Source of the DNA: Gammaproteobacteria bacterium | GTDB lineage: Bacteria; Pseudomonadota; Gammaproteobacteria; Ga0077536 | DNA: 64,000 bases | Direction: 5' to 3' | NCBI GenBank assembly: GCA_963662545.2 | Contig: CAXXLL010000002.1 | Coordinates: 2,464,001 to 2,528,000 of the forward strand | Part shown: positions 2,227 to 63,086 of the stretch, piece after piece | Layout: every line of letters begins with the position of its first letter | Position numbering within the stretch: position 1 is the stretch's first letter | Position numbers and translations under genes: made by a program | The notes under the pieces: generated by a model | Told to the model about the DNA's origin: nothing | The model's database searches: none | Seen by the model: only the letters and a program-made list of their open reading frames with translations

Positions 2227-2388
2227 GGAACCTCTGAATAAGTCATGGTGCGTCTGAATGGTTCATGCAATGGTGCAGATCAAGGCACGAAGCGCAGTCA
2301 ATAGCGGGGACTATGGGCAAGGTTCGTAACGTAAGGCTCCGCCATTTCATGGGCAAGGCAGATGGGCCATGACTTATTCAGAGGTTCC
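2227..2388 (+). mobile_element. MITE-A copy 1 (162 bp)
   Basis: perfect 22-bp TIR GGAACCTCTGAATAAGTCATGG; flanks TTAA/TTGA; abuts the TAA stop of the Mth938 gene. Confidence 0.92.
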
Positions 2389-2419
2389 TTGAATATGGGG
2401 AGCGCAGTTGTTCAGCTTC

Positions 2420-3352
2420 TCATACCTCCGCAAACAGCGCGTCGACGGAGAATCCCTCGCGCTCAAGTATCTGGCGCAGCCGCTTGAGGGCCTCGATTTG
2501 AATCTGCCTGACCCGCTCGCGCGTAACTCCGATCTCGTTGCCAACTTCTTCGAGCGTGCCGATTTCGCGGCCGTAAAGCCCGAACCGACGTTCGACCACC
2601 GCGCGCTGTTTTTCGTTGAGTTGCGCCAACCATATGTCGATATGCCGTTGCACGTCATCGTTTTGCAGGATGGTGGCAGGATCCGGGTTCTGTTCGTCAG
2701 GTATCGTGTCGAGCAGGGAACGGTCCGAATCGCGTTCGGCGGGCACATCTACTGATGCGATCCTCTCATTCAGCCCCAGCATGCGTTTGACGTCCTCGAT
2801 CGGTCGATCGAGCATGTTTGCGACGTCCTCAGGATTCGGTTCTCGATCGAGCTTCTGAGCCAACTGCCGCGCTGCACGCAGGTAGATATTGATCTCCTTG
2901 ATGACGTGTATGGGCAACCGGATAGTTCGGGTCTGATTCATCAGCGCTCGTTCGATCGTTTGCCGGATCCACCAGGTTGCATAGGTCGAGAAACGAAAAC
3001 CGAGCTCGGGATCGAACTTCTCCACCGCACGGATCAGCCCGAGGTTGCCCTCTTCGATGAGATCCAAAAGCGCGAGTCCGCGATTCATGTATCGTCGAGC
3101 GATCTTGACCACCAGGCGAAGATTGCTCTCGATCATGCGCTTGCGCGCCGCCTCGTTGCCCTTCAGGGAGAGCCTCGAATACTTGACTTCTTCAGCCGCA
3201 CTCAGCAGCGGCGAGAACCCAATCTCATTGAGGTAGAGGCGCGTCGCATCCATGTCGCCGTGCGAGACCTCGCCGGCCTTATATTTGTTGGTATCTTTGG
3301 TATCGGTTTCGTCGGCGGTGCTGGCAGGCAAACTCGAATCCGCTTCGTTCAT
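2420..3352 (-). CDS. rpoS: RNA polymerase sigma factor RpoS (true start may be 3638, see findings)
   Basis: [50 protein letters not shown]; lies downstream of nlpD. Confidence 0.96.
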
Positions 3353-3430
3353 GTCTTGGAGTTGACTTTCGGACTCGGTGATATTGTCGTCGAGTTCAGC
3401 GTCTTTGGCCTTGGCTTTAGCCTTGGTGTT

Positions 3431-3563
3431 GGCTTTAACCTTAGCTTTAACCTTAGCTTTAACCTTAGCTTTAACCTTAGCTTTAACCTTAGCTTTAACC
3501 TTGGCTTTAACCTTGCTTTAACCTTAGCTTTTTGGCTTTGGCTTTGGCTTTGGCTTTGGCCTT
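3431..3563. repeat. Tandem repeats: 7 x 12 bp RGCTTTAACCTT, one 11-bp unit, then ~5 x 6 bp GGCTTT
   Basis: read directly; encodes (AKVK)n and (AK)n on the minus strand. Confidence 0.95.
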
Positions 3564-3653
3564 ACCCGCGCCACCCGCCCGTGCGCGACGCCCGCTATTT
3601 GCGCCCGATCCTTTGTTCTTGATGCGCGGGCCCGCCATTGGTATCTCGGAGTG

Positions 3654-4451
3654 TTATCTTTTCGGCAGAAACTTCAGTGGATCGACCGCCTTGCCGTTTC
3701 TTCGAATTTCAAAATGCAACATCACGTCCTTGGCATCCGTATCGCCCATACGGGCGATCAATTCGCCGGCATTTACGCGTCGCCCTTCTGGAACCAGGCG
3801 CGTATCGTTGTGCGCGTACGCGCTAAGATACGTTTCGTTGTGCTTAATGATAATAAGCTCTCCGTAGCCCCGTAGTCCACTTCCGCTATAGACGACCGTA
3901 CCCGGCGCAGCGGCTATGACAGCCTGACCTATTGCGCCGTGGATTTCGATGCCTTTGGAACCTGATACCGTCGCGGCGGATTTCGTTCTCCCCTGCGTCG
4001 GCCAAACCCACCGAATGGGCAACGATGGGAGCATTTTTTTTGGGCTTTTCGCGTCGACTGCAATTGCTTTAATTGCAGTGGATTTTTTCGACGAGTTCGG
4101 TTTCGATGAAGCGGCGGGGCTGGGCGGCGCCCGCAGACGAAGTTTCTGTCCGACAAAGATCAGATCCGGGTTACTCAATTCATTCCACTTCACGAGATCT
4201 CGGTAATCGATACGGTATCGCCACGCGACAGCGTGCAAGGTGTCGCCTTTCGCTACGATGTATATAGCGGGCCGCAAAGCAGGAAGCTTTGACTTGCGCG
4301 GCCGCGGCGTCGATTTCGTAATGCGCTGCCGGTGCTCGGCCGCCAGCGTCTTCTGATCGATAGGGGCATAGCTCGTGCTTGCGCATCCGGTAGCCAGCGC
4401 AATGACGAGGCTGTAAAGAACTAGAAATGCTCGGCGAGGTCTAAGCCTCAT
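3654..4451 (-). CDS. nlpD: Lipoprotein NlpD (LysM + M23 peptidase-like)
   Basis: lipobox LATGC, LysM (KGDTL...LIFVGQKL), GLRGYGELIIIKH, AYAHN, LHFEIR; pcm-nlpD-rpoS order. Confidence 0.92.
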   Translation of the reverse strand: MRLRPRRAFLVLYSLVIALATGCASTSYAPIDQKTLAAEHRQRITKSTPRPRKSKLPALRPAIYIVAKGDTLHAVAWRYRIDYRDLVKWNELSNPDLIFVGQKLRLRAPPSPAASSKPNSSKKSTAIKAIAVDAKSPKKMLPSLPIRWVWPTQGRTKSAATVSGSKGIEIHGAIGQAVIAAAPGTVVYSGSGLRGYGELIIIKHNETYLSAYAHNDTRLVPEGRRVNAGELIARMGDTDAKDVMLHFEIRRNGKAVDPLKFLPKR

Positions 4452-4457
4452 AAACCG

Positions 4458-5114
4458 CTAACTCACGCCTTCGAGTAGTGGAACGAAGCTTACCCGTTCC
4501 AGTATCTCCTCATCGATACCCCCGTTGTTTTTCGTGTAAAGACGAAGATCCTGAAAACCGGCGCGTCCTATCGGGATGATGAGGCGTCCGCCTGGCGCCA
4601 ACTGATCGAACAACCCTTCGGGCACTCCGACCGGCGCCGCAGCGACCAAAATTCCGTCGAACGGCCCGTTGGCGGGCCATCCCCGGTAGCCATCGCCGTG
4701 GCGAACACGGACGTTCGATATGCGCAGTTCGTGCAGCCGTGTTCTAAGTCGATTGGCCAGGGCTGCAATACGCTCGATCGCGAATACGCGCTCGGCCATA
4801 TGGGCAAGGATTGCGCTTTGATAACCGCAGCCGGCGCCAATTTCAAGTACTTTATCGCGTGTCCCCGTGGCATAGAGTGCTTGGGTCATCGCAGCGACGA
4901 TGTACGGCTGAGAGATCGTTTGTCCGTAGCCTATGGGCAGCGCTGTGTTCTCGTAAGCACGGCTGGCAAGCGCCTCATCGACAAACAGATGCCGAGGTGT
5001 CGTGCGCATGATTTCGAGTACGGCCTCATTGTTGATCCCCATGCTTCTCAACTGTTCGACCAGCCGGTTGCGGGCCCTTTGCGAGGTCATGCCTATCCCG
5101 CGCGGATCAGCCAC
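4458..5114 (-). CDS. pcm: Protein-L-isoaspartate O-methyltransferase
   Basis: GIGMTSQR, PRHLF, QTISQPYIVA, VLEIGAGCGYQ, FVPL. Confidence 0.95.
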   Translation of the reverse strand: MADPRGIGMTSQRARNRLVEQLRSMGINNEAVLEIMRTTPRHLFVDEALASRAYENTALPIGYGQTISQPYIVAAMTQALYATGTRDKVLEIGAGCGYQSAILAHMAERVFAIERIAALANRLRTRLHELRISNVRVRHGDGYRGWPANGPFDGILVAAAPVGVPEGLFDQLAPGGRLIIPIGRAGFQDLRLYTKNNGGIDEEILERVSFVPLLEGVS

Positions 5115-5244
5115 TCGCTTTTACGCCCTCTGGAAGCACGTTACAAATCGTCCACACAGGAGCCCGCGTGCGGGCAAAATGAAATCTGTTCCGTAATGCG
5201 CAACAGATGTTTAGCATCTATCTTGAAATTATACGGGTGCACGT

Positions 5245-6153
5245 TCAAGCGACCTTCAGCAGAAATTCGAGCAACGCTTTTTGAGCGTGAAGCCGGTTGC
5301 CCGCCTCATCCCACACTACGCTGTTTGGGTGGTCGATCACTTCTGCCGTCACTTCCTCGCCTCGGTGGGCGGGTAAACAATGCATGAACAAGACGTCCGG
5401 GGCTGCTAGAGACAGGAGATCGGCGGTAACCTGAAACGGTTGAAATACTTCTTTACGCGCTTCGCGCTCCTCCTCCTGCCCCATGCTGGCCCACACATCG
5501 GTAACTACCAGATGCGCATCCCTCACCGCCTGCTTTGCGTCATGCATGAATTCGACCGGAGCATTTTCGGAGAACGCGTCTCGTCCGCTCGGCGTGAAGC
5601 CCTCCGGTGTCGCCACCCTGAGATCGAAATCCATCAGGTTCGCGGCGTTGATGTAGGAATTGCACATGTTGTTCCCGTCGCCGACCCAGGCGACTTTGCG
5701 GCGCCGAATATCCCCGCGATGTTCATGGAAAGTCATGAGGTCGGCGAGTACTTGGCAGGGATGCAGACTGTTGGTCAGGCCGTTGATAACCGGCACGCTC
5801 GAATGTGCCGCGATACGCTCGACGATTTCATGCTCATAAGTTCGAACCATGATGGCGTCCGACATTTCCGCGAGGACACGAGCAGTGTCCTCTGGCGGTT
5901 CACCCCGGCCGACCTGTGATTCCCTGGTCGAAAGGAAAATTGCCTTACCGCCACCCTCTGCCATCACCGCCTCGAAAGATACGCGGGTACGGGTTGAAGA
6001 TTTTTCGAAGATCATTGCGAGCACCCGGCGTTCGAACAACGGCGGCCGGCGTCCTTCGCGGCGCCAGCGCTTGAGTTCTACCGCTCGTTTGAGCAGATGC
6101 AGGACTTCCTGTCGGTCGAGATCCAATAACGATAGGAAATGACGCACTGACAT
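5245..6153 (-). CDS. argF: Ornithine carbamoyltransferase
   Basis: FEKSSTRTR, HPCQ, DVWASMG, FMHCLP. Confidence 0.96.
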   Translation of the reverse strand: MSVRHFLSLLDLDRQEVLHLLKRAVELKRWRREGRRPPLFERRVLAMIFEKSSTRTRVSFEAVMAEGGGKAIFLSTRESQVGRGEPPEDTARVLAEMSDAIMVRTYEHEIVERIAAHSSVPVINGLTNSLHPCQVLADLMTFHEHRGDIRRRKVAWVGDGNNMCNSYINAANLMDFDLRVATPEGFTPSGRDAFSENAPVEFMHDAKQAVRDAHLVVTDVWASMGQEEEREARKEVFQPFQVTADLLSLAAPDVLFMHCLPAHRGEEVTAEVIDHPNSVVWDEAGNRLHAQKALLEFLLKVA

Positions 6154-6167
6154 CGTGAATCACCAGT

Positions 6168-7358
6168 TTATGATGCTTTTTCGGTAAAGTTACTCACCAG
6201 TCGCACCACCTGCGACACGACTTTGCGCGCTTCTTCGTCGCTCATGATCAAGGGCGGCAGCAGTCGGACCACGCTATCTGCGGTAACGTTCAGTAAGAGA
6301 CCGTCGTCAAGCGCAAGCTTGACAAGGTCTGCGCACGGGCGGTCGAGTTCGATGCCGAGCATAAGGCCGAGACCGCGAATACTCTTGACCGCCGGATTGC
6401 CGTTCAAGGCATCGCCGAATTCGTCCCGCATCATCCGTCCGAGTTCGGCCGCCCGGTCGACCAAGCCATCGCGTTCGATCACCTCGATCACTGCAAGTGC
6501 GGCGCTCGCCGCGAGCGGATTGCCGCCGAAGGTCGATCCGTGCGTGCCGGGCTGTAAAACGTCCGCCGCAGCCCCCGCCGCGATACAGACCCCGATGGGG
6601 ACTCCATTGCCGAGCGCCTTGGCCAAGGTGATCACGTCGGGCGTGACGCCTTCGTGCTGAAAGCCGAACCAAAGGCCGGTGCGCCCCATGCCGGACTGCA
6701 CCTCGTCTATCATCAACAGCAGGCCGCGGTCGTCGCACAGCTTGCGCAATGCCGACAAGTACCGGGCTTTGGGAACGACGATGCCGCCTTCACCCAGAAC
6801 AGGTTCGACGAGTACGGCGACGACGTCAAGCTTACCCGCGGCTTCACCAACGGCATCGATGTCATCGAAGGGAACGTGTACGAACCCGTCTACCAATGGT
6901 TGAAATCCCGCGTGAACTTTTGGGTTGCCGGTAGCGCTCAAAGTCGCCATGGTGCGACCGTGGAAGCTGCCGTCCATCACGATCACCGCCGGCCGGTCGA
7001 TGCCTTTTTCGTGCCCGAACTTACGCGCGATCTTGATCGCAGCTTCATTCGCTTCGGCGCCCGAATTGCAGAAGAATACGCGCTCCATATCCGCTAGCGT
7101 GGTGAGCTTGTGCGCGAGATCTTCCTGCAGCTCGATACGATAAAGGTTGGAAGTGTGCAGCAGTCGTTGTGCCTGTGCCGCAATCGCGGCTGCCACGTCC
7201 GGATGGGCGTGACCCAATCCGCACACCGCAATCCCGCTCAAGGCGTCGAAGTATTCCTTGCCGTCGGTATCCCATAAATACGGCCCGCGACCATGGGTAA
7301 AACTCACGTCGAGCCGTCGGTAGGTTGCCATCAATGCCGAATCCCGAGTTGCAGTCAT
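6168..7358 (-). CDS. argD: Acetylornithine aminotransferase
   Basis: NSGAEANE, FHGRT, DEVQSG, TLAKALG, HGSTFGG; co-oriented with argF. Confidence 0.93.
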   Translation of the reverse strand: MTATRDSALMATYRRLDVSFTHGRGPYLWDTDGKEYFDALSGIAVCGLGHAHPDVAAAIAAQAQRLLHTSNLYRIELQEDLAHKLTTLADMERVFFCNSGAEANEAAIKIARKFGHEKGIDRPAVIVMDGSFHGRTMATLSATGNPKVHAGFQPLVDGFVHVPFDDIDAVGEAAGKLDVVAVLVEPVLGEGGIVVPKARYLSALRKLCDDRGLLLMIDEVQSGMGRTGLWFGFQHEGVTPDVITLAKALGNGVPIGVCIAAGAAADVLQPGTHGSTFGGNPLAASAALAVIEVIERDGLVDRAAELGRMMRDEFGDALNGNPAVKSIRGLGLMLGIELDRPCADLVKLALDDGLLLNVTADSVVRLLPPLIMSDEEARKVVSQVVRLVSNFTEKAS

Positions 7359-7384
7359 AGTGTCGTTTCGATCGTGCGTTTCAC

Positions 7385-7435: not shown

Positions 7436-7598
7436 AATCTCGTTATCAAGCCCAGGCGAACGGCAGGTCCATCGCGACCGCGCGTTGCATGGGCTAGGCG
7501 TGTTCTGGCTAAGCAACCTCTGAATAAGTCATGGTGCGTCTGAATGGTTCATGCAATGGTGCAGATCAAGTCACGAATCGCAGGCCATAGCGGGTACT

Positions 7599-9021
7599 CA
7601 TAGGTTAGTTCTTAAGCGGCCGCATGAACATGCTGAAGGCCGAGCTTGAGTCGTCCCGAAATGCAATCGCGGTCAGGTTTTGCGCGCTGAGCGTTGCTGG
7701 CCAAATAGCGCAACGCGTGTTCGAGCGGTCGGTGTAAAGAGCGGGGCCGATGGATAAGCGTATGGAGAATGGGACCGAGCACGTGATGAATGCACTTGGC
7801 CGCGGTATGAGTCGAGATGGCGACGTTCAACCAGCGCTCGGTGACATGAGCGCAATAGCGCTGCAGCGTTGCGGCGCATAGTGCGGCCCAGATAAGCCCT
7901 TCGGCGATGTGCGGGTTGGCGGTATCAAAGGCGTGTAGATTGGCGTAAGACTTCCACTCTTTGAAGAGCAGCTCGACCTGCCAGCGTAATCGATACGCGT
8001 CGCTAATATGCTCGGGCGTAAAGGTGGTGGCGTCGAGATTGGTGATGAGATAACGAGGTGCTGCACCTTTTTTAAGGTTGGGGTGCACGACTAAACGACA
8101 GGTCCAGGGTCCCTGCACGCCGTCGAATTGCACGGCCATGTCGAGGCAATCGAAGCGCTTTAAGGTCGATGCCACCGCTTTCAATCGCTGCTTGTCAAAG
8201 CGTTTGACCCGCCGCCCATCGGCGCGACGAGCGGCAACGATCAGCGGATTGATGCCCTGACCCGCGCGCACGATGAAATGGCCGCCGGCGGTGTCGAGCG
8301 CTTCAAAGTAAGGCCGTGCGAAGTAGCCACGGTCGGCCAGCAACAAACCGCCAGCGACCTCTTCAACCGCCGGCAAGAACTGCCGCTCTGCTGAGCTGTC
8401 AGGGCTGAGTACGACCTCGTTCAGGGTCTCACTGAGCAGGTCGAGATCGGCATGGAGTTCCACCGCGGCGGGACTCACGGTCGTGAAGCGACCGGGAAAG
8501 CTGTCCTTCAGCGCCGGTTTTAACGCAAACGAGGTGCCGTCCTGGATGCGGATGTGGTCAAACTGCGCAAATGGGCTGTTGGGTTCGAATCGGAGGACAT
8601 CGCAGGCCAGGCCATTGAGCAATTCGCTTAGCAGCGCTTGCATAAACATCGGAAACTGTTTTTTGGCGAGCTGATTATGAAACGGTTTGTAGCGCACCGT
8701 GGTCGAGCACAGCGCATTGAAAGCGCGTTGAATATCAGCGATACAGCTCGCTGAGTGCCCGGCGAAGCTTTCGATTAGGCTTACCGCTAAACGGAACGGC
8801 GTGACCTCCCTTTCTCGGCGACAGAATCGCGTTGCACGCCCCAAGTCGTTGAGCGTACGCTCGCCTAGCGTGCGTTTTAACTGCCGGCTCACTGTGCTAG
8901 TTTCGCTGTGCTTCATCCGATACTCCCAGATCACGAAGTCGATTGGTGTTGATTTCATGATCTGATCGGATGGAGCGCTTTTGGTTCCCTCTTTTCAACG
9001 GGTTATAAGATCCGACCTATG
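7599..9021 (-). mobile_element. IS4-family insertion sequence, 1423 bp
   Basis: TIR CATAGGTTAGTTCTTA vs CATAGGTCGGATCTTA (13/16); 10-bp target duplication AGCGGGTACT at 7589-7598 and 9022-9031. Confidence 0.93.
7612..8958 (-). CDS. IS4-family DDE transposase (start may be 8916)
   Basis: IQDGT, LADRGY, and YRLRWQVELLFKEWK (Y-2-R-3-E-6-K signature). Confidence 0.95.
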   Translation of the reverse strand: MKSTPIDFVIWEYRMKHSETSTVSRQLKRTLGERTLNDLGRATRFCRREREVTPFRLAVSLIESFAGHSASCIADIQRAFNALCSTTVRYKPFHNQLAKKQFPMFMQALLSELLNGLACDVLRFEPNSPFAQFDHIRIQDGTSFALKPALKDSFPGRFTTVSPAAVELHADLDLLSETLNEVVLSPDSSAERQFLPAVEEVAGGLLLADRGYFARPYFEALDTAGGHFIVRAGQGINPLIVAARRADGRRVKRFDKQRLKAVASTLKRFDCLDMAVQFDGVQGPWTCRLVVHPNLKKGAAPRYLITNLDATTFTPEHISDAYRLRWQVELLFKEWKSYANLHAFDTANPHIAEGLIWAALCAATLQRYCAHVTERWLNVAISTHTAAKCIHHVLGPILHTLIHRPRSLHRPLEHALRYLASNAQRAKPDRDCISGRLKLGLQHVHAAA

Positions 9022-9389
9022 AGCGGGTACTAGGGCTAAGGTTCGTAACGTAAGGCTCCGCGATTTCATGGACAAGGCAGATGGGCCATGACTTATTCAG
9101 AGGTTCCTTAATGCATTGTCCGCAAGAGCTCGCCACGATGCAACTCCTGATAGCGGGAAAACCCAATGGAAACGGCACGATAGGACGCATTGAACCACGC
9201 TCCAACCGGCCTGTAACGGTTGGCGCCACGCGCCCTTCAGCGATGGACTTCTTGAGGAGATCTCGTAGCTAGCGGAATGTTTGCAGTGCTTCGGGGGGGT
9301 CTTGTAAGGCGAGGAGGTATATTAAAATAGAACTCAAGCAATTAGACTCAGTCTATTAGGGTCAGTGCTTTCCCATACGAGGACACCGA

Positions 9390-11740: not shown

Positions 11741-11839
11741 CCGATTGCATGAAGCTCGGACATCGTCGAATGACCTGATCAATCCTGGTTGCACAATAAG
11801 TTCTCTAAGCGTCGTGGCCGCCTTCGAGCATTAGGCGGG
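11741..11839 (+). mobile_element. MITE-B right-end fragment
   Basis: aligns without gaps to 25583-25681 (CATCGTCGAATG.CCTGAT.AATCCTG...GGCCGCCTTCG.GC..TAGGCGGG). Confidence 0.8.
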
Positions 11840-11965: not shown

Positions 11966-13552
11966 ATGTTGGGGGGTGAAACCAGACGGGGAGGAATCGT
12001 CGCGTGTCTGCTCGCGGCCTGTCTAGTCGGCTGTGCAAACCAGCCTTCTTCGAAGCGCACAGACCCGGATCCGGGTCCATTCGAATCCGGTGGTCAATCA
12101 GGCCTCGAATCAGCGACCGCGCTGGACGGCGGCGGGCAGCGCAAAGCGCCCGCACGGGTCGCCGGCCAAGTGGACGATTTATGGCACCGGATCATCGTCG
12201 AGCTGCGCATGACGCCACCCAGCCACCAGCGTATCGAGGCGGCTGTCGCCGACCTCCGCCGCAATAGCGATTTCGTTTCTGCGGCAACGACGCGCGCCGG
12301 ACCCTATTTGTATTTCATTTACCAGGAGATCGAAAAGCGTCGTCTTCCATTCGAAATAGCGCTCGTGCCGATCATTGAGAGCGGCTACGCGCCGCGCGCC
12401 ACTTCGCCGGATGGCGCCGCTGGAATCTGGCAGCTCATGGCTGCGACCGGGCATCGCTTCGGCCTGCATCAATCGCGCTGGTTCGACGGCCGGCGCGATA
12501 TCGTCGCAAGCACCTACGCGGCACTGGACTACTTTGAAGAATTGAGCGATCGCTTTTACGGCGACTGGCTGCTTGCATTTGCCGCGTATAACTGTGGCGA
12601 GCGTACGGTGGAACGCGCCATCGAACGCAATCAGCGTATGGGGCGACCCACCGATTTCTGGTCGCTCGAATTACCGCGCGAGACCGAGCTTTACGTCCCA
12701 AAGCTGCTCGCCTTGATCGAGGTGCTGTCACATCCCGAAGCACACGGCGTGACGGTTGCCGAGATTCGCTATGCGCCCTACTTCGATAGCGTCGAGGTCA
12801 ATGGTTCGCTCGATCTCAACCGGGTGATCGAGTGGAGCGGCATGTCCACTAAAGAATTCGAGGCTTTGAATCCCGGGTTCCGAACGCGTTACAGCGTGAA
12901 CGGGACGCCGAGCCGAGTGCTGGTACGCAAGAACAAGGCCGAAGCCGTCGCCATCGCGCTCGCCGCACTATCCGACGACGATCGCATGGCGCCGCGCACC
13001 TACACCGTCAAGTCGGGTGAAACCCTGTCGCACATCGCGGCCGAGACCGGCGCGACGGTGGCGGCCCTCAAGCGGGCGAACGGGATGCGTACAAACCGCA
13101 TTCACGCCGGCCAGAACATTTTGATCCCGGTACTCGGTTCGATCACCGGCGGTGAGAGGTCGTTTGACTCTGAGAGTGCCAATACCAGGGTCCATGTCAT
13201 CGTTCGGGGCGATACCTTGTGGGATCTCGCACGGCTCTACGGGACCACCAGCGACGCCCTTGCGGCTGCGAACGACATGCATCCAGACCACACCCTGCGC
13301 CCGGGACGGGAATTGCGCTTGCCGGGCGGCACCGTCAAAGAACCGCCCGGCGCGTCGGTACGCCATTACGAAGTCAAAAAGGGCGATTCGCTATGGACTA
13401 TATCTCGCCGTTTCAAGGTGTCGGTGGCGGAACTCAAGAAATGGAACGGACTGTCCGGCAAGCGCTATCTCAAACCGGGCCAGCGCCTGGTAGTCTACCA
13501 ACCCGCCCCAACTTCCGTCGACGCCCGTCAGGAAATTATAAGAAACCTCTGA
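11966..13552 (+). CDS. mltD: Membrane-bound lytic murein transglycosylase D (SLT + 3 LysM)
   Basis: lipobox LVGC, PIIESG, AAGIWQ, AAYNCG, ETELYVPK, three LysM repeats; the last codons come from the MITE. Confidence 0.9.
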   Translation: MLGGETRRGGIVACLLAACLVGCANQPSSKRTDPDPGPFESGGQSGLESATALDGGGQRKAPARVAGQVDDLWHRIIVELRMTPPSHQRIEAAVADLRRNSDFVSAATTRAGPYLYFIYQEIEKRRLPFEIALVPIIESGYAPRATSPDGAAGIWQLMAATGHRFGLHQSRWFDGRRDIVASTYAALDYFEELSDRFYGDWLLAFAAYNCGERTVERAIERNQRMGRPTDFWSLELPRETELYVPKLLALIEVLSHPEAHGVTVAEIRYAPYFDSVEVNGSLDLNRVIEWSGMSTKEFEALNPGFRTRYSVNGTPSRVLVRKNKAEAVAIALAALSDDDRMAPRTYTVKSGETLSHIAAETGATVAALKRANGMRTNRIHAGQNILIPVLGSITGGERSFDSESANTRVHVIVRGDTLWDLARLYGTTSDALAAANDMHPDHTLRPGRELRLPGGTVKEPPGASVRHYEVKKGDSLWTISRRFKVSVAELKKWNGLSGKRYLKPGQRLVVYQPAPTSVDARQEIIRNL

Positions 13553-13703
13553 ATAAGTCATGACACATCTGCCCTGCCCATGGAATCGCGGAGCCTTACG
13601 TTAGGAACCTTAGCCCTAGTCCCCGCTATGCCGTGCGATTCGTGCCTTGACCTGCACCATTACATGAACCATTCAGACGCACCATGACTTATTCAGAGGT
13701 TTC
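13542..13703 (-). mobile_element. MITE-A copy 3 (162 bp, reverse orientation)
   Basis: TIR GAAACCTCTGAATAAGTCATG; flanks ATAA/TTAA. Confidence 0.92.
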
Positions 13704-18155: not shown

Positions 18156-18160
18156 CCTAG

Positions 18161-18323
18161 GGAATCTCTGAGTAAGTTTATGGTGCGGGTGAATGGTGCA
18201 TGAAATCGTGCAGATCAAGGCACGATTCGCAGGCCATAGCGGGGACTATGGGCAAGATTCGTAACGTAAGGCTCCGCGATTTCAGGCGCAAGGCAGGTGT
18301 GCCATAACTTATTCAGAGGTTCC
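18161..18323 (+). mobile_element. MITE-A copy 4 (second subfamily)
   Basis: TIRs and internal core match the other copies; flanks CTAG/CTAA; 5 bp after the methyltransferase stop. Confidence 0.92.
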
Positions 18324-18332
18324 CTAATCACT

Positions 18333-21998: not shown

Positions 21999-22159
21999 GG
22001 AACCTCTGGATAAGTTATGGACACCTGCCTTGCGCCTGAAATCGCGGAGCCTTACGTTGCGAATCTTGCCAATAGTCCCCAATATGGCCTGCGATTCGTG
22101 CCTTGATGTGCACGATTTCATGCACCATTCACCCGCACCTTAACTTATGCAGAGGTCCC
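21999..22159 (-). mobile_element. MITE-A copy 5 (second subfamily, reverse orientation)
   Basis: TIRs; perfect 4-bp duplication CTAA/CTAA. Confidence 0.92.
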
Positions 22160-22173
22160 CTAATGCCCGCAAG

Positions 22174-25408: not shown

Positions 25409-25423
25409 ACGGGTGCGGGCTAG

Positions 25424-25681
25424 CCCGCCTATTGCACGACGGACGGCGGATACCGGCGCAGGACAGGTGCGTCTGGACGCCGGTCTGGAACTCGAGTCTG
25501 AGCTGTAGCTATGGCGAGAGCTTGACCTGAGTCCAGGCGCACATGGACCAGCCGGTGCCGTCGTAGGCCGCCAGCGGTGGTACCCATTGCAATTTGCTCG
25601 AACATCGTCGAATGGCCTGATTAATCCTGTTCGCTCAACAACTTCTCTGAGCGCCGCGGCCGCCTTCGTGCGATAGGCGGG
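25424..25681 (+). mobile_element. MITE-B, complete 258-bp copy
   Basis: TIR CCCGCCTATTGCACGA vs CCCGCCTATCGCACGA (15/16); CTAG on both sides. Confidence 0.88.
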
Positions 25682-29261: not shown

Positions 29262-29291
29262 CATCTAGAACCCGCATCAAATATTATCTGC

Positions 29292-29323
29292 ATGTGCGGA
29301 TAACTTTGCGGTAGGTTCCTTAA
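29292..29323 (+). mobile_element. Degenerate MITE-A right end
   Basis: ATGTGCGGATAACTT......AGGTTCC|TTAA compared with GTGTGCCATAACTTATTCAGAGGTTCC of copy 4. Confidence 0.4.
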
Positions 29324-49520: not shown

Positions 49521-50459
49521 ATGCCCGACCTCGTTCTGCACCATTATGATGAAGCGCCTTTCGCCGAAAAAATCCGACTTATCTTCGGCATCAAAGACTT
49601 GGCATGGCATTCCGTCATTCAGCCATCGGCCTTACCCAAGCCGGACCTCGTGCCGCTGACCGGCGGATATCGCAGAACACCCGTGTTCCAAATAGGGGCG
49701 GATATCTATTGCGATACTCAATTGATCGCCGCGGAACTCGAAGCGCTTTACCCGGAGCCGACGATTTTTCCGGATGGTAACGCCGGCCTGGCGTATGCAC
49801 TCGGCAGTTGGGCACACGGCCCTTACGTGGTCAGTTCGGTGGCGATCTACATGGGAGCGGAGGATCCGTTCGCCGGCGACGTCTCGCTACCGCGGCATTT
49901 TTACGAAGATCGCAAGAAGATGTGGATGACCCAGTTCGACACCGATCAACTCGGACCCAAGCTTGCAGGCTACCGCGCGCAACTGGATGCGCACACGGAC
50001 TTCATCAATATGCAGTTGGCCGACGGTCGCGCCTTTTTAACCGGTGACAAACCAAGCCTGGTCGATCTTCACGCGATGTGGGACCCGTGGTTTCTACGCC
50101 GTTTCGCGCCCGTCGAAGCGAGCCGCGCCTACGACAGGTTTCCCGCCATCGAGCAATGGGAAAAACGCCTCGCGGCGATCGGTCAGGGTAGACGCAGCGA
50201 GATGGATCCTAAACGGGCGCTCGAAATCGCCCGTAACACCAGACCCGAACCGGCAACCGGTATCGATCCGAACGATGCGTTAGGCATTAGCGCGGAAACG
50301 ACCGTCCGAGTATCGCCGTCGGACTATGCCGAGGTCGACGTTATCGGCGAACTGGTGGCAACGACGGTGCGCACAGTGACGATTCGGCGCGATGACCCGG
50401 ACGTGGGCCGGGTGCACGTGCATTTTCCCAAAATCGGATACGTCATTGAACCCGTTTAG
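49521..50459 (+). CDS. Glutathione S-transferase family protein
   Basis: LHHY..APFAEK, GGYRRTPV.QIGADIYCDT, VHFPKIGY. Confidence 0.9.
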   Translation: MPDLVLHHYDEAPFAEKIRLIFGIKDLAWHSVIQPSALPKPDLVPLTGGYRRTPVFQIGADIYCDTQLIAAELEALYPEPTIFPDGNAGLAYALGSWAHGPYVVSSVAIYMGAEDPFAGDVSLPRHFYEDRKKMWMTQFDTDQLGPKLAGYRAQLDAHTDFINMQLADGRAFLTGDKPSLVDLHAMWDPWFLRRFAPVEASRAYDRFPAIEQWEKRLAAIGQGRRSEMDPKRALEIARNTRPEPATGIDPNDALGISAETTVRVSPSDYAEVDVIGELVATTVRTVTIRRDDPDVGRVHVHFPKIGYVIEPV

Positions 50460-50512
50460 CCCGCCTATTGCATGAACAATAGCTGATGACGGCGCAGGAC
50501 AGGTAGGTCCGG
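50460..50512 (+). mobile_element. MITE-B left-end fragment
   Basis: TTAG|CCCGCCTATTGCA...CGGCGCAGGACAGGT matches 25424-25476; starts right after the GST stop. Confidence 0.75.
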
Positions 50513-58279: not shown

Positions 58280-59149
58280 TCAGTATCGCCGCAGAAGCTC
58301 GATGAGACTCGAGGTGTCCCAGCGCTGACCGCCGAGTTTTTGTACTTCCGCGTAGTATCCGTCGATCAAAGTCGTAACCGGCAGGCGGGCACCGTTGCGC
58401 GCGGCTTCGGCGAGGACGATCCCGAGGTCTTTGCGCATCCAGTCGACGGCAAACCCGAAATCGAATTCGCCGCGGCACATGCTGCCGGCGCGGTTTTCCA
58501 TCTGCCACGATTGCGCGGCGCCTCGGGAGATGACTTCAATGACCGCATTCATGTCGAGTTTCGCGCGCTGTCCGAAATCAAGCGCTTCGGCCAGCCCCTG
58601 CAGCACCCCGGCAACGCAGATCTGATTGACCATCTTGGTCAATTGGCCGCTACCCACGGGCCCCATCAAGACGCAGGCGCGCGCATAGGCGTCGATCACG
58701 GGCCGCGCGCGCTCGAAGGCGCGGCCCTCGGCACCGCACATGATGGTCAGCTCACCGTTCTCGGCGCCGGCCTGTCCGCCGGAAACCGGCGCATCGATGA
58801 AGTGCACATCGCGTTCGATCGCGACCGCGGCGAGTTCCCGCGCGACGACGGCGGACGTCGTCGTGTGATCGACGTAGATCGCATCGCGTTCCATGGCCTC
58901 CAGCGCACCCTCGGCGCCCACTAGGATCTCGCGTAGATCGTCATCATTGCCCACGCATGAGAAAACGATCTCGGCTCCGCGTGCGGCATCGCGCGGCGTG
59001 GCCATTGATCGACCGGCGTGTTCGCCTAGCCAACATGCCGCTTTTTCGGCCGTGCGGTTGAAAACGGTGACGTCGTGCCCCGCCGCGCTCAAATGGCCCG
59101 CCATCGAATATCCCATGACACCGAGGCCCAGAAAACTAACTCTCGCCAT
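58280..59149 (-). CDS. Beta-hydroxyacid dehydrogenase (3-hydroxyisobutyrate DH family)
   Basis: FLGLGVMG, DAPVSGG, KMVNQ, KDLG. Confidence 0.93.
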   Translation of the reverse strand: MARVSFLGLGVMGYSMAGHLSAAGHDVTVFNRTAEKAACWLGEHAGRSMATPRDAARGAEIVFSCVGNDDDLREILVGAEGALEAMERDAIYVDHTTTSAVVARELAAVAIERDVHFIDAPVSGGQAGAENGELTIMCGAEGRAFERARPVIDAYARACVLMGPVGSGQLTKMVNQICVAGVLQGLAEALDFGQRAKLDMNAVIEVISRGAAQSWQMENRAGSMCRGEFDFGFAVDWMRKDLGIVLAEAARNGARLPVTTLIDGYYAEVQKLGGQRWDTSSLIELLRRY

Positions 59150-59651
59150 AGATTTCCAGCTCCTGAATTACCTTTCTTTGACTCGCCGTGCTGGTACTGT
59201 CGTTCGAGCACCGAACAATCGAATCAACGGCGATGACGGGTGCGAAGACGGCCTAATGCTGAGGATTGAACGCAGAAATCCGTGCTTCACACGGTCTGCG
59301 AATGTGTTCTCCCGCACGCGAAATAGCGGATTCTATCATCCATAAAGAGCCTATTAAACAATTGGTTGCGATTCTACAGGTTAAAATAAGCAACGCTTTC
59401 AGGAGCGACGAAATTTTAGGATGCCGTCTTCGAAGCTTGTATCGAGCGGGCCGGTTTTGAACGCAGCCACTGCCCATCGAATGGGCATTCTTAACGATCC
59501 GGGAGGAGCGTTTTGGACGTGAGAGAAGCGTTAGGTTGAGGGTCAAGGGCCACGGCTTAATCGCTCTTCGGCATGACGAGACAAATTCAAATTCGCCGGC
59601 AGTCGGGCGATTGCGTTCATGCAGCTGCGCAGTGCGCTGGAACCCTCGATA

Positions 59652-61292
59652 TTAATTGCGGCCCCGGGCACAACCATCAAATCTCGGCTCGCTCGCCCCG
59701 GCATATCCCGTATTGATCCGGCGCACGCATTGATACCCGCCCATAAACTGCTGGACGGCATCAAGGTTGGAAGACATCTCGTGTCCCCGCGATTTCATGT
59801 CGCCGATCAAGCCCTGCTCGAATTCAGCTTCGTAGAACACCTGGCCGGCATCCGCCTGGCGCGTCACCGTCGGCGTATTGAGGCCGTCGTGCCGCATGCG
59901 CGGCGCCCTTCCCGCGGCATCGGGGTCCATATCGAAGTCGAGCATGTTCACCAGCACCTGTACCTGGCCCTGCGGCTGCATGTCGGCGCCCATTACGCCA
60001 AGGCTCATCAAGGGCTCGCCACCGTGCATGACGAAGGCGGGAATGATCGTGTGGAAGGGACGCTTGCCCGGGGCGTAGGCGTTCGGATGTTGCGCGTCGA
60101 GAGAAAACGCAGAGCCGCGGCTCTGCAACGCAAATCCCATTCCGTCGGGCACGAGGCCTGAACCAAACTTGACGAAGATACTTTGAATCAGAGACACCAT
60201 GAGCCCCGCATCGTCGGCCACACTGAGATAAGTTGTATCACCCCGGGACAGGGTTGGATCACCTTGCACCGGACGGCAGAGCGCCCGGTCGGTAATGAGG
60301 GCTGCACGTTCCGCGGCATACCCTTTGTCATTGAGTGCGGCGATGGGTACCGCGCCGAATTCCGGGTCGCCATAAAACCGCGCCCGGTCTTCAAAGGCGA
60401 GTTTCTTCGCCTCGATGAAGCGATGCCAGTAGTCGGCCGACTCGGGACCGTATTCGGCCAGCGGAAAATTCTCGAGGATGTTCAACATTTGCAGAACGGT
60501 CAGGCCCTGGCCGTTCGGCGGCAGTTCGTAGACGTCATAGCCGCGGTACTCCGTCGTGATCGGGTCGACCCACTCGACGCGTGCTTGTGCGAAGTCTTCT
60601 GCGGTCAGTCTGCAGTCGACACCGGCGAGATACGCGACCATTCGCGCAGCGATGTCGCCCTTGTAAAAATCGTCAAACCCTCGTTCGGCAAATCCGGCAT
60701 AGGTGCGCCCAAGGTCCGGGTTGCGTACGGTATCGCCCGCGTTCGGCGGCCTTCCATCGAGGAGAAAGGTTTTCCGCAAGTTGGCTTTGAATTCGTCGGG
60801 GGTGGGCGCGCTCATCGCCATACTCGCCGACTTGTGCCACCACGCCGCGGTTGCGGGGCCGATCTTGACACCCGCTGCGGCATATTCGATTACCGGCGCG
60901 AAGATGTCGCCCAGGTTTAAGCGGCCGAAGCGTTGGTGCAGCGCCGCCCAGCCCCTCACGGCGCCCGGCACGGTGATCGAATGAACGCCGTTGACAGGGA
61001 TCGCCTGATCGCCGTCGAGCCGCCTCTTGAGTTCAGCAAGGCTTTGGGCGCGCGGGCTGCGGCCACTGGCATTCAGGCCATGCAGTTTCCGTGTTGCCGG
61101 ATCCCACACAATGGCGAACAGATCACCACCGGGTCCGCACATGAAGGGTTCGCAGAGACTCAGCATGGCGTTAGCGCCGATCGCGGCGTCGACCGCGCTG
61201 CCGCCGCGCTCGAGTAATTCGACGCCGACGTCGGTGGCCAGAGTCTGGCTGGTCGCGACCATGCCACGGGCTGCGGTAACCGGCCCGCTCAT
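59652..61292 (-). CDS. ggt: Gamma-glutamyltransferase family (no signal peptide)
   Basis: GGSAVDAAI, GGDLF, ELPPNGQG, DTTYLSV (Thr nucleophile), PGKRPFHTI, QPQGQ. Confidence 0.9.
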   Translation of the reverse strand: MSGPVTAARGMVATSQTLATDVGVELLERGGSAVDAAIGANAMLSLCEPFMCGPGGDLFAIVWDPATRKLHGLNASGRSPRAQSLAELKRRLDGDQAIPVNGVHSITVPGAVRGWAALHQRFGRLNLGDIFAPVIEYAAAGVKIGPATAAWWHKSASMAMSAPTPDEFKANLRKTFLLDGRPPNAGDTVRNPDLGRTYAGFAERGFDDFYKGDIAARMVAYLAGVDCRLTAEDFAQARVEWVDPITTEYRGYDVYELPPNGQGLTVLQMLNILENFPLAEYGPESADYWHRFIEAKKLAFEDRARFYGDPEFGAVPIAALNDKGYAAERAALITDRALCRPVQGDPTLSRGDTTYLSVADDAGLMVSLIQSIFVKFGSGLVPDGMGFALQSRGSAFSLDAQHPNAYAPGKRPFHTIIPAFVMHGGEPLMSLGVMGADMQPQGQVQVLVNMLDFDMDPDAAGRAPRMRHDGLNTPTVTRQADAGQVFYEAEFEQGLIGDMKSRGHEMSSNLDAVQQFMGGYQCVRRINTGYAGASEPRFDGCARGRN

Positions 61293-61479
61293 GGCGTTGC
61301 CTCAGCTATGAGTCGATGCCACCCGCTGCTCGAGCGTATAAAAATTAGTTTCCACATCGCGCTATTCTAACCGAGGGACAAGTCCGGATATCTCAGCAAC
61401 GGGGCCTGTTGATCAATAATATTTGGCTTCACTGTGTTCCGTAACTGACCCACTGATCGATTCAGTGCAGTAAGCTTAT

Positions 61480-62838
61480 TCATCCGGAGGCGTGCGCACC
61501 GCTCATGAGCGTACGCAGGTACATCACCGCGCCACCCAATGCCCACAGGCCGCAGATCATCCACTCCTGGGGCCACAGCAGTGCGGCCGGGCTCCAGGGT
61601 AGATAGAGGGTCGCCATGGCGCAGGCAAAGGCAAAGGCGAGCCATCCGCAGACCGGTCCGAACGGTACGCGATAGGGGCGTTCGAGATCGGGTTGCTGGC
61701 GCCTGAGTACGATAAACGCCAGGGCGACCACAGCATAGGCGATGATGACGCCGACGGAGCCCGCGTTGACCAGCCACACCAGTGCGGAACGCCCAAACCA
61801 CGGTGCCACGCAGGATATCGCGCAGATCAGCCACAAGGCGCGCGCGGGACTTGCGTGTTTATCATCCAGCCTGGCCAGCCAAGAAGGCAGCATACGGCTC
61901 GACGCCAGGGCGTAAATGAGCCGGCTGGCGGCGAGGAGAAAGGCATTCCAACTCGTGATGATGCCGGCGATCCCGCCGCACACTAAAACCGTACCCGCCC
62001 AGGTTCCCGACCACGCGGCGACCGCCGCGTCGGCAGTCGTCAGGGTCGATTGCGCGCGCGCCGAAGGGCCCAGTACGTAACCCACTGCGAGCACGATCAA
62101 CACGTAGAAGGCGGCGGCGGCGATCACCGAGAACACCACGAGCGCGCCGATGCGGGCGGGCGGCAGATCGATCTCCTCGGCGGCCTGCGGGATGACGTCG
62201 AAGCCGACGAATAAGATCGGAATCATCACAAGCACACTGAGCGTGCCGGTCAGACCGTTCTCGAACAATGGTGTCATGTTATCCATTCCGCCGCTGAACG
62301 ACGCGCCGCTAATCAGGACCGCGCCCGACAGCAGTATCAGTACTGTAACGAATCCCTGCAGGCGCGCGGCCGTCGAAATGCCCCATACGTTGACGGTGGT
62401 CAACACCAGGGCGGCAGCGATACCGATGGCTATTTGGCTGGCGTAAACATCCCATCCGGCCACCCGCCATAACAGGCCGACCTTGATCGCCGGAAACAGG
62501 TAAGACAGCGCGAAAGGCAGGGCCACTACTTCGAAGGCGACGACCGAGACATAACCGAGCAGCAAGGCCCAGGTACAGACGAAGGAAACATGGGGTCCGA
62601 AAGCGCGGAGGGTGTAGACGTGCTCGCCCCCGACTTTGGGCATGGCCGAAGCGAGTTCGGCATAAGTCAGTGCGATCAAGACCATGCCAATCCCCGCCAC
62701 CGCAAAGGCCAGCGCTGCGCCCAAGGTGCCGGCCTCGCCGATCCACAGGCCCGTCAACAGAACCCAGCTCCAGCCCATGATCGCGCCGAAGGCGAATGCC
62801 ACGACGTGGTGGCGTTTCAGTATCCGTTCAAATTCCAC
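61480..62838 (-). CDS. APC-family amino acid/polyamine permease
   Basis: FGAIMGWSW, YAELASAMP..GGE, FVGFD..PQAAEE, RPYRVP. Confidence 0.92.
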   Translation of the reverse strand: MEFERILKRHHVVAFAFGAIMGWSWVLLTGLWIGEAGTLGAALAFAVAGIGMVLIALTYAELASAMPKVGGEHVYTLRAFGPHVSFVCTWALLLGYVSVVAFEVVALPFALSYLFPAIKVGLLWRVAGWDVYASQIAIGIAAALVLTTVNVWGISTAARLQGFVTVLILLSGAVLISGASFSGGMDNMTPLFENGLTGTLSVLVMIPILFVGFDVIPQAAEEIDLPPARIGALVVFSVIAAAAFYVLIVLAVGYVLGPSARAQSTLTTADAAVAAWSGTWAGTVLVCGGIAGIITSWNAFLLAASRLIYALASSRMLPSWLARLDDKHASPARALWLICAISCVAPWFGRSALVWLVNAGSVGVIIAYAVVALAFIVLRRQQPDLERPYRVPFGPVCGWLAFAFACAMATLYLPWSPAALLWPQEWMICGLWALGGAVMYLRTLMSGAHASG

Positions 62839-62925
62839 GAACGGTTTTTATCGATCCAAATCGGTTCGATTGGCCCGACACGCATGCGCGAGCTTCGTAT
62901 TCCCTTACGTCGATTATCAGCTTAG

Positions 62926-63086
62926 GGAATCTCTGAATAAGTCATGGTGCGTCTGAATTGTTCATGCAATGGTGCAGATCAAGGCACGAATCGCAGGCCA
63001 TAGCGGGGTTAGGGCTAAGGTTCGTAACGTAAGGCTCCGCCATTTCATGGGCCAGGCAGATGGGCCATGACTTATTCAGAGGTTCC
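62926..63086 (+). mobile_element. MITE-A copy 6
   Basis: TIRs and internal core match; flanks TTAG/TTAA. Confidence 0.92.

What the first reader, a model, noticed from the sequence alone, without database searches (positions are those of the whole stretch)
2227..63086. Abundant 162-bp whole-length hairpin element (MITE-A) with compensatory base changes
Seen: six copies (2227, 7513/9032, 13542, 18161, 21999, 62926) plus a remnant near 29300, about one per 10 kb, in two subfamilies. Pairing continues past the 22-bp TIR through GTCTG/CAGAT, CATG/CATG, AATGGTG/CGCCATT, ACGAA/TTCGT and ATAG/CTAT to a ~6-nt apical loop, with many G-T pairs. Covariation: aatGgtg/cgcCatt in copies 1 and 6 versus aatCgtg/cgcGatt in copies 4 and 5 (copies 2 and 3 are mismatched here); gtCatgg/ccatGac versus Tatgg/ccatAac; gAaacc/ggttTc in copy 3. 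Known: GGAA...GAATAAG ends and YTAR targets resemble IS5-subgroup elements. Inference: this is a non-autonomous element whose interior is selected as an RNA or ssDNA structure, like ERIC or RPE elements. No cognate transposase is in the window.
Basis: partly seen in the sequence, partly recalled or inferred. Interest (0 to 1): 0.72.

Follow-up and report, generated by a model that had tools for sequence, protein, structure and literature searches.

The report
Widespread hairpin MITE with IS5 ends
This is a 162-base non-coding jumping-DNA element of the IS5 type, and its relatives in many other marine bacteria keep the same long hairpin on one particular strand, which suggests that the fold helps the element spread and does not serve the host.

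Summary
The window carries six copies of a 162-bp element with 22-bp terminal inverted repeats. One copy is split by an IS4-family insertion sequence. The claimed remnant near 29300 is not supported.

Genome-wide there are 132 full-length copies and 19 partial matches. They are flanked by 4-bp YTAR duplications, and a sister species has clean empty sites. It is a mobile IS5-type MITE. No matching transposase is in this genome.

Two lie inside the terminal repeats, and one is a single-step repair of a G-G mismatch. Within this genome most correlated columns are subfamily markers, not base pairs.

The inference is nevertheless largely borne out at a wider scale. A covariance model finds full-length relatives (157-162 nt) in 38 of 151 sampled gammaproteobacterial families. 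The mid-stems differ completely in sequence but stay paired: 474 double-sided changes against 97-139 in slid controls. G-T exceeds A-C about 4:1 on one strand in 20 of 21 clusters.

Recent in-situ mutations show no such bias, and insertion orientation does not favour sense transcripts. Selection therefore most likely acts on propagation, not on host function. Whether the folded strand is RNA or single-stranded DNA is unresolved.

The scan noted an IS5-type MITE in another genome before (e1-1402549).

The parts
2227..2388 (+). Copy 1, full 162 bp, stable ('forward') strand on +. The flanking 4-mers are TTAA and TTGA.
   Evidence: 129.8 bits. The syntenic site in G002 is empty and holds a single TTGA.
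7513..7598 (+). Copy 2, left part (element positions 1-86).
   Evidence: The whole split copy is absent from the syntenic G002 site.
7599..9021 (-). IS4-family insertion sequence inside copy 2. Its 448-aa transposase ORF is at 7612-8958 on the - strand. The 10-nt target duplication equals element positions 77-86.
   Evidence: 11 near-full copies genome-wide, each with a 10-nt duplication. NF033592, 196.5 bits against a cut-off of 115.
9022..9107 (+). Copy 2, right part (element positions 77-162, starting with the duplicated 10 nt).
13542..13703 (-). Copy 3, forward strand on -. A TAA lies directly before its window-left end.
   Evidence: The same site is occupied in the same orientation in G002. 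It differs from the G002 copy at 31 of 161 sites.
18161..18323 (+). Copy 4, second subfamily, flanked by CTAG and CTAA. It sits between two + strand ORFs.
   Evidence: The G002 site is empty and holds a single TTAG. A low-depth metagenome contig of run X15 joins 18160 to 18331.
21999..22160 (-). Copy 5, second subfamily, flanked by CTAA and CTAA.
   Evidence: The same site in G002 is occupied in the opposite orientation.
62926..63086 (+). Copy 6, flanked by TTAG and TTAA.
   Evidence: 123.7 bits.
29283..29322 (.). The claimed remnant. It is not supported as a copy.
   Evidence: 1.8 bits, E 1.7; no match.

Best explanation
The element is a non-autonomous transposon (MITE) of the IS5 family. Its two ends both resemble the transposase-proximal end of about 1.2-kb IS5-family insertion sequences that carry an NF033581-type DDE transposase. 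Such a transposase, supplied in trans, would bind the 18-22-bp terminal repeats and insert the element at YTAR, duplicating those four bases. The target often coincides with a TAA or TAG stop codon. This genome no longer holds such a transposase, so its roughly 130 copies are orphans that decay neutrally.

The element belongs to a superfamily of about 158-162-bp hairpin MITEs spread over many gammaproteobacterial families. In that superfamily the whole-length hairpin of one particular strand is kept by selection, together with a sequence-conserved apical domain. Selection most likely acts when a copy propagates. Only source copies whose forward strand still folds are mobilised efficiently, as single-stranded DNA or as RNA.

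Shown: identity as a MITE, mobility, target, relatedness to IS5-family ends, covariation, strand asymmetry. Inferred: mobilisation by that transposase, that the fold acts at propagation, and the nature of the single strand.
For: Census and mobility.
- 132 full-length copies of 151 BLASTN clusters; 113 of the 132 are exactly 162 bp.
- 70 of 129 copies have identical flanking 4-mers and 41 differ at one base. 59 of the 70 are YTAR.
- Copies 1, 2 and 4 have empty sites in G002.
- Of 39 G002 copies fetched, 19 lie at sites occupied in G000 (16 in the same orientation) and 15 at sites empty in G000, one of those ambiguous.

Link to IS5-family ISs.
- An IS of 1,198 bp in L269 has a terminal 18 nt identical to the superfamily end, a 324-aa transposase (NF033581, 349 bits against a cut-off of 140) and a CTAG duplication.
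- ISs of 1,157-1,183 bp with YTAR duplications and related ends occur in the same bacterial family and class.

Structure.
- On 52 elements in 21 clusters, 88.2% of cells pair, against 74.3% when shuffled and 34-42% when slid.
- 474 double-sided changes, against 166 shuffled and 97-139 slid. Covariation score 0.413 against 0.06-0.10.

Strand asymmetry.
- The forward strand is the more stable one in 47 of 47 elements, 28 of 28 in G097, 9 of 9 class-wide hits and 130 of 132 copies here. With DNA parameters the figures are 46 of 47 and 127 of 132.
- Interior G-T 123 against A-C 30, with G-T ahead in 20 of 21 clusters.

Level of selection.
- Among variants seen in 3 copies or fewer, G-T 70 against A-C 78 cells.
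- Among commoner variants, 125 against 28 cells, or 12 against 4 distinct variants.
- Low-frequency variants are as common in paired as in unpaired sites, and in the terminal repeats as in the interior.
Against: - Presence of the element and of an NF033581 transposase do not go together. Both occur in 6 of 151 genomes where about 6.5 are expected (Fisher p = 1). The partner is therefore inferred from end identity, not from co-residence.
- Counted as distinct variants, the contrast between rare and common variants is only marginal (Fisher p = 0.05).
- 17 common transversion variants break pairs.
- The structure counted was derived from folds of the same sequences, and the sequences are related. 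Both inflate the contrast somewhat.
- Orthologous G000/G002 copies differ by about 12% (my arithmetic). Four-fold degenerate sites in one syntenic block differ by 20%. This could mean some constraint in place, or gene conversion.
- No DDE IS5-family transposase is known to me to need a folded single strand (recalled).
Confidence: 0.55

Rival explanations
1. Host-level RNA element. Inserted copies are kept because their transcript hairpin acts on neighbouring messages (stability, processing, termination), as reported for ERIC or bcr1.
For: - 119 of 132 copies are intergenic, and 47 abut a stop codon.
- The strand-specific G-T excess fits an RNA.
- Orthologous copies diverge less (about 12%) than four-fold sites (20%).
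- MITE transcripts forming stable stem-loops, and bcr1 with compensatory changes, are on record (passages of PMC3184786; PMC10969869).
Against: - Between tandem genes the stable strand is sense in 32 copies and antisense in 51. At stop codons the split is 22 against 25.
- Rare mutations show no pairing bias.
- Copies are present or absent between sister species.
- No promoter-like or terminator-like site lies in or beside copies 1 and 6.
- The stop-codon position follows from a YTAR target combined with loss of insertions that land inside genes.
Confidence: 0.2
2. The hairpin is a by-product. The element arose as an inverted duplication of one IS end, and its arms are kept alike by DNA-level homogenisation (gene conversion between arms or copies), with no selection on a folded single strand.
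For: - Both arms resemble the same (transposase-proximal) IS end.
- Orthologous copies in G000 and G002 differ in whole haplotype blocks (positions 106-109 and 113) in 6 of 16 pairs, which points to conversion between copies.
Against: - A symmetric DNA process predicts as many A-C as G-T oppositions. Observed are 30 against 123, in the same direction in 20 of 21 clusters.
- Mid-stems of different families share no sequence yet stay paired, with up to five pair types per position.
- A one-base bulge and asymmetric internal loops are conserved across families.
Confidence: 0.1
3. The element is not moved by an IS5-family DDE transposase at all. Some other enzyme acts on the single-stranded hairpin, as REP elements are moved by RAYT or IS200/IS605 elements by their transposase.
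For: - No co-occurrence with NF033581 transposases.
- The fold is strand-specific.
- The forward strand has the leading-strand sequence in 50 copies and the lagging-strand sequence in 82 (binomial p = 0.007).
Against: - 4-bp YTAR duplications and terminal inverted repeats match IS5-family ISs over 18 of 18 nt.
- Variants of the MITE end track variants of IS ends.
- Single-strand transposons of the HUH kind make neither terminal inverted repeats nor duplications (recalled).
- The replication bias is confounded with gene orientation.
Confidence: 0.07

Closest known systems
IS5-family insertion sequences with NF033581-type transposase (IS5 group)
   Same: The terminal sequence is identical over 18 of 18 nt to L269 and over 19 of 21 nt to L138. 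Both make a 4-bp YTAR duplication.
   Different: There is no transposase gene. Both ends copy the transposase-proximal end. The interior is an 80-bp-arm hairpin, whereas the IS ends are complementary over only about 16-18 nt. No such IS is in this genome.
ERIC / IRU elements of enterobacteria
   Same: Both are about 130-160-bp imperfect palindromes, intergenic, found across many genera and able to form a long hairpin. This description of ERIC is recalled, with passages in PMC3184786.
   Different: The terminal sequence and target differ (recalled; I had no ERIC sequence to compare). Here orientation relative to genes gives no sign of an effect on messages.
bcr1 repeats of the Bacillus cereus group
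   Same: About 155 bp, flanked by short direct repeats, with compensatory base changes that keep the fold (passage of PMC3184786).
   Different: bcr1 is described there as having 5-bp repeats and being transcribed. Here the duplication is the 4-bp YTAR, the ends are IS5-type, and transcription is unknown.
Correia (NEMIS) elements of Neisseria
   Same: A high-copy MITE with long terminal repeats whose hairpin transcripts are processed (recalled; mentioned in PMC10969869).
   Different: Correia elements have a different target and carry promoter and IHF sites (recalled). No promoter-like site was found here.
REPINs mobilised by RAYT transposases
   Same: Both are hairpin repeats whose persistence is best understood as selection on the replicator itself (PMC3116915 and bioRxiv 10.1101/2021.07.10.451892, seen as search listings only).
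   Different: REPINs lack terminal inverted repeats of this kind and target duplications (recalled). This element has both.

Membership tests
MITE | Short, non-coding, with terminal inverted repeats | tested here: met
   162 bp with 22-bp repeats. No ORF of 50 aa or more lies within a copy; the ORFs listed around copy 2 belong to the inserted IS or to flanking DNA.
MITE | Many dispersed copies flanked by target-site duplications | tested here: met
   132 full copies. 70 of 129 have identical flanking 4-mers and 41 have one mismatch.
MITE | Evidence of mobility (empty sites) | tested here: met
   Copies 1, 2 and 4 are absent from syntenic G002 sites, which hold a single target. 15 of 39 G002 copies lie at sites empty in G000.
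IS5 family (non-autonomous derivative) | 4-bp duplication of YTAR | tested here: met
   59 of 70 identical duplications are YTAR: TTAG 26, CTAA 20, TTAA 13. The ISs compared have the same target. That YTAR defines the IS5 group is recalled.
IS5 family (non-autonomous derivative) | Ends matching those of an IS that encodes an IS5-family transposase | tested here: met
   L269 matches over 18 of 18 nt and its transposase scores 349 bits on NF033581. L138 matches over 19 of 21 nt. The L252 end equals the end variant of the elements in L245, L246 and L248.
IS5 family (non-autonomous derivative) | Cognate autonomous IS in the same genome | tested here: not met
   No end pair 170-6,000 bp apart bounds an IS5. 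The best tblastn hit is E 1.2e-6. The best NF033581 score is 111.6 bits, under the cut-off of 140.
IS5 family (non-autonomous derivative) | Mobilised in trans by that transposase | not testable with these tools
   This needs a transposition assay.
Any Rfam family | Match to a curated covariance model | tested here: not met
   0 matches at gathering score in the window. No match on the elements at E up to 1 in L092, L113 and L006.
ERIC / IRU | Sequence homology to the ERIC consensus | not tested
The differences named are recalled.
REP / REPIN | Short palindromes without target duplication, linked to a RAYT gene | tested here: not met
   This element has terminal inverted repeats and 4-bp duplications. 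A RAYT gene was not searched for.

The most novel reading that the evidence does not exclude
The 160-nt fold, with its class-wide conserved apical domain, is a working single-stranded module that mobilisation requires. On this reading, IS5-type MITEs of this superfamily are recognised or licensed as a strand-specific fold-back. The fold-back would be single-stranded DNA exposed on one replication template, or a transcript. That is a requirement not described for DDE transposases of the IS5 family, and it would explain why the family persists and spreads in genomes that hold no matching transposase.
Probability: 0.2. Interest if true: 0.8.

Novelty: new member of a known kind. Interest (0 to 1): 0.55.

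Why it matters
Why bacterial MITEs are so often long hairpins is an old question. It is usually answered by their origin (two IS ends joined) or by presumed RNA effects on host genes.

This superfamily is an unusually clean case for study. It is found in about a quarter of the sampled gammaproteobacterial families. Its stems have been rewritten many times yet stay paired. The pairing is read on one strand only. Inserted copies then decay without regard to the fold. This separates selection on the replicator from selection on the host.

It also makes a direct experiment possible: a transposition assay with arm-mismatch and compensatory mutants.

In practical terms, the element is a frequent cause of contig breaks. 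It is also a marker of recent genome change in marine sulfur-oxidising and symbiotic bacteria.

Tried and rejected
- Autonomous partner in this genome. End pairs 170-6,000 bp apart bound membrane-protein genes, an IS630-family IS or an IS4-family IS, not an IS5.
- ORFs beside solo ends. Ten ORFs in other genomes were all ordinary genes or without a family. None was a transposase (the first try failed on a reference containing stop codons).
- G157. It has many young copies and one NF033581-like gene, but that gene has no matching end within 3 mismatches.
- RNA evidence. No RNA holder was listed for window:12000-19000, so expression could not be examined. Contigs of four runs only showed breaks at the copies and one low-depth contig of X15 that skips copy 4.
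- Plasmid collection. BLASTN with a superfamily member gave no match.
- Viral contigs. Of 4 loci, one holds the full IS (L269) and one a short hairpin remnant (L268). L267 and L270 were not examined beyond the model search.
- Within-genome mutual information as a covariation test. It was rejected as evidence because the top pairs are linked subfamily markers.
- Cell-based Fisher test of rare against common variants (p = 4e-10). It overstates the case because copies are not independent. The count of distinct variants gives p = 0.05.
- Intrinsic terminator or promoter role. No such sites lie at copies 1 and 6.
- RNAalifold on the 132 copies returned an empty structure. The fold of the consensus was used instead.
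Full report
OBSERVATION

- A scan for the 16-nt end with up to three mismatches returns exactly twelve ends, two per copy. Shuffles give 0.21 on average, and 0 of 100 shuffles reach twelve.
- Copies at 13542 and 21999 are reverse-oriented.
- The copy at 7513-9107 is split at element positions 77-86 by a 1,423-bp IS4-family insertion sequence. It has a 10-nt target duplication, and its transposase scores 196.5 bits on NF033592.
- Copy 1 folds end to end. As RNA it reaches -85.4 kcal/mol (z -10.6) and as DNA -39.6 kcal/mol (z -8.1). The complementary strand reaches -64.0 and -33.4 kcal/mol.
- The remnant claimed near 29300 is not supported. It scores 1.8 bits (E 1.7) with filters off, and neither the end scan nor BLASTN finds it.

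CENSUS AND MOBILITY

The window is G000:C2:2464001-2528000 in a 5.58-Mb genome with 58% G+C.
- BLASTN finds 151 clusters. Of these, 132 are full length (150-170 bp), 113 are exactly 162 bp, and 68 lie on + and 64 on -.
- Mean identity to the consensus is 91.8%, and mean pairwise identity is 86.8%.
- The window holds one copy per 11 kb, against one per about 42 kb genome-wide.
- Of 129 copies with both anchors, 70 have identical flanking 4-mers and 41 differ at one base. 59 of the 70 are YTAR.
- The sister genome G002 is syntenic with the window at 84-92% identity. It lacks copies 1, 2 and 4 and holds a single target at those sites. It has copy 3 in place, and copy 5 in the opposite orientation.
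- Of 39 G002 copies fetched, 19 lie at sites occupied in G000: 16 in the same orientation, 2 opposite, and 1 with an unrelated insert. 15 lie at sites empty in G000, one of those ambiguous. 5 could not be placed.
- The element therefore moved both before and after these species split. The third genome of the genus, G001 (89% complete), gave no match.

WHICH TRANSPOSASE

No pair of ends 170-6,000 bp apart bounds an IS5 in this genome, although the genome is rich in ISs (108 PF01609 matches).
- In a related genus, a 1,159-bp IS with a TTAA duplication encodes a 317-aa transposase. It scores 337.5 bits on NF033581 and carries PF01609 and PF05598. Its transposase-proximal end shares 18 of 21 nt with the element's end.
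- Such ISs occur in 10 of 81 genomes of the bacterial family. None is in this genus. One of them matches 19 of 21 nt.
- An IS of 1,198 bp on a viral-collection contig (L269) has a terminal 18 nt identical to the superfamily end, a CTAG duplication and a 324-aa transposase scoring 349 bits.
- An IS in G158 (L252) carries an end variant identical over 18 nt to the end of MITE families in three other genomes.
- In this genome the best tblastn hit is E 1.2e-6. The best NF033581 score is 111.6 bits, under the cut-off of 140.
- The element is thus an orphan IS5-type MITE. Both of its arms copy the transposase-proximal IS end.

COVARIATION INSIDE THIS GENOME

On the 132 copies, double-sided pair-keeping changes are confined to a few pairs: 18-145 (19 copies), 37-126 (22), 74-89 (19) and 66-96 (7).
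- The columns with the highest mutual information are mostly not base pairs. They are linked subfamily markers.
- The subfamily that carries 18-145 and 37-126 also carries pair-breaking changes at 27-136, 28-135 and 39-124.
- On this evidence alone the structural claim would not stand.

THE SUPERFAMILY

By their record titles these come from marine gammaproteobacteria:
- Sedimenticola;
- Candidatus Thiodiazotropha;
- tubeworm endosymbionts;
- Thiotrichaceae;
- sponge symbionts;
- Arenicellales.

One MAG is labelled Nitrospirota.
- In the 80 loci fetched, 49 end pairs lie 158-164 bp apart.
- The 51 distinct elements nearly all fold as one hairpin with the same architecture. A one-base bulge sits in the right terminal repeat, the internal loops are asymmetric, and the apical domain is conserved.
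- The consensus printed reads GATCAAGGCGCGAATCGCAnGTAATAGCnGGGCTATTGCGAAGnTTnGCAACG in that domain.
- The mid-stems share no sequence between families.
- On an alignment of 52 elements, 66 pairs are 88.2% paired, against 74.3% after shuffling and 34-42% when partners are slid. There are 474 cells with changes on both sides, against 166 shuffled and 97-139 slid. The covariation score is 0.413 against 0.06-0.10. Single positions show up to five pair types with one broken cell.
- A covariance model built from this alignment finds full-length matches of 157-162 nt in 38 of 151 genomes drawn one per family from the class. G221 among them is unpublished, so without it the count is 37 of 150.
- Genome G097 holds several families, including variants of 184 and 199 bp.

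ONE STRAND

Elements were oriented by sequence homology.
- The forward strand is more stable than its complement in 47 of 47 elements, by 19.4 kcal/mol on average. G-U pairs number 325 against 101.
- The same holds in 28 of 28 elements of G097, 9 of 9 class-wide hits and 130 of 132 copies here. With DNA parameters it holds in 46 of 47 and 127 of 132.
- Counting one representative for each of 21 clusters over fixed pair columns, interior G-T oppositions number 123 and A-C 30. G-T leads in 20 clusters and none shows the reverse.
- Base composition alone would give about 1.3:1 (my arithmetic).
- A process acting on the duplex would treat the two kinds of opposition alike. The fold is therefore read on one strand, as RNA or as single-stranded DNA.

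WHERE SELECTION ACTS

At Watson-Crick consensus pairs in the 132 copies:
- Single transitions seen in three copies or fewer give G-T 70 and A-C 78 cells (32 and 39 distinct variants).
- Commoner variants give 125 and 28 cells (12 and 4 distinct variants).
- The contrast is p = 4e-10 by cells, which overstates it, and p = 0.05 by distinct variants.
- Rare variants are as frequent in paired sites (2.35 per site) as in unpaired sites (1.93), and in the terminal repeats (2.52) as in the interior (2.14).

Gene context rests on my own crude ORF caller, not on an annotation.
- 119 of 132 copies are intergenic. The other 13 overlap ORF ends by at most 75 nt.
- 47 copies abut a stop codon.
- The stable strand is sense in 32 and antisense in 51 copies between tandem genes (p = 0.048), and in 22 against 25 at stop codons.
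- The forward strand has the leading-strand sequence in 50 copies and the lagging-strand sequence in 82 (p = 0.007). This is confounded with gene orientation.

These results fit neutral decay after insertion, with selection for the fold at the moment of propagation.

Against this reading:
- The 16 orthologous pairs with the same orientation differ at 19.9 sites on average, or 12.3% (my arithmetic).
- Four-fold degenerate sites in one syntenic block differ by 20%.
- 6 of the 16 pairs differ in a whole block of linked positions.
This points to gene conversion between copies, or to some constraint in place.

PARTNER PARADOX

In the same 151 genomes, NF033581 transposases over the cut-off occur in 26 (G120 and G221 are unpublished).
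- Both features occur together in 6 genomes, where 6.5 are expected (Fisher p = 1).
- Most carriers, including single-contig genomes, are orphans.
- Either the IS visits and is lost, or something else moves the element. The identity of the ends and of the target favours the first.

COMPARISON AND NOVELTY

- Rfam has no match.
- Five literature searches found no paper on this element or its end sequence.
- Passages of two reviews state that MITE transcripts form long stable stem-loops and that bcr1 of Bacillus shows compensatory changes (PMC3184786; PMC10969869).
- A hairpin MITE with compensatory changes is therefore a known kind of thing.
- What I could not find in print: the class-wide spread of one architecture, the strand-specific pairing, the conserved apical domain, and the contrast between propagated and in-situ mutations.

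LIMITS

- There are no RNA data.
- Gene calls are crude.
- The counted structure was derived from the same sequences.
- Elements within clusters are related.
- The genome search scored at most 19-40 candidates per genome, so copy numbers elsewhere are lower bounds.
- Claims about G120 and G221 rest on unpublished genomes.

Noticed in passing
window 7599-9021; also G000:C3:2821507-2822926: A 1.42-kb IS4-family IS has 11 near-full copies genome-wide, each with a 10-nt duplication that starts just after a TA. Two of the 11 sit at the same apical position of two different MITE copies. A third MITE copy (G000:C3:1181259-1182567) is split at nearly the same place by an IS630-family IS.
   Followed up: partly
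G000/G002 orthologous copies (loci L173, L180, L189, L190, L193, L201): Copies at the same site and in the same orientation in the two species differ in a block of five linked positions (106-109 and 113). This is seen in 6 of 16 pairs and points to gene conversion between copies or repeated parallel change.
   Followed up: partly
window 21999-22160 versus L203 743-904; also L195: Two of 18 shared insertion sites hold the element in opposite orientations in the two species. The cause is either independent insertion at one site or inversion in place.
   Followed up: no
window 3393-3579: About 15 tandem copies of a 12-nt unit. They probably encode a lysine/alanine-rich repeat on the - strand. This was not examined.
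   Followed up: no
window 11741-11839 / 25583-25681 and 25421-25476 / 50457-50512: Two further dispersed repeats (99 nt at 81% identity; 56 nt at 79%) lie side by side at 25421-25681. They may be another small mobile element.
   Followed up: no
whole genome G000: The IS load is very heavy: 108 PF01609 matches, about 50 of them in one family with a 466-aa open frame. Short-read contigs of other samples break at the MITE copies.
   Followed up: no
G000 C2 and C3: The forward strand of the element has the lagging-strand sequence in 82 copies and the leading-strand sequence in 50 (binomial p = 0.007). This is confounded with gene orientation.
   Followed up: partly
G097 (loci L215-L235): One complete sponge-symbiont chromosome carries several families of the superfamily side by side, including variants of 184 and 199 bp. 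All fold better on the forward strand.
   Followed up: partly
left end of every copy, e.g. window 2223-2245: The target plus the terminal repeat carries stop codons in two of three frames within 20 nt. ORFs that run into the element therefore end at once. 13 predicted ORFs end inside a copy (frames worked out by eye).
   Followed up: no
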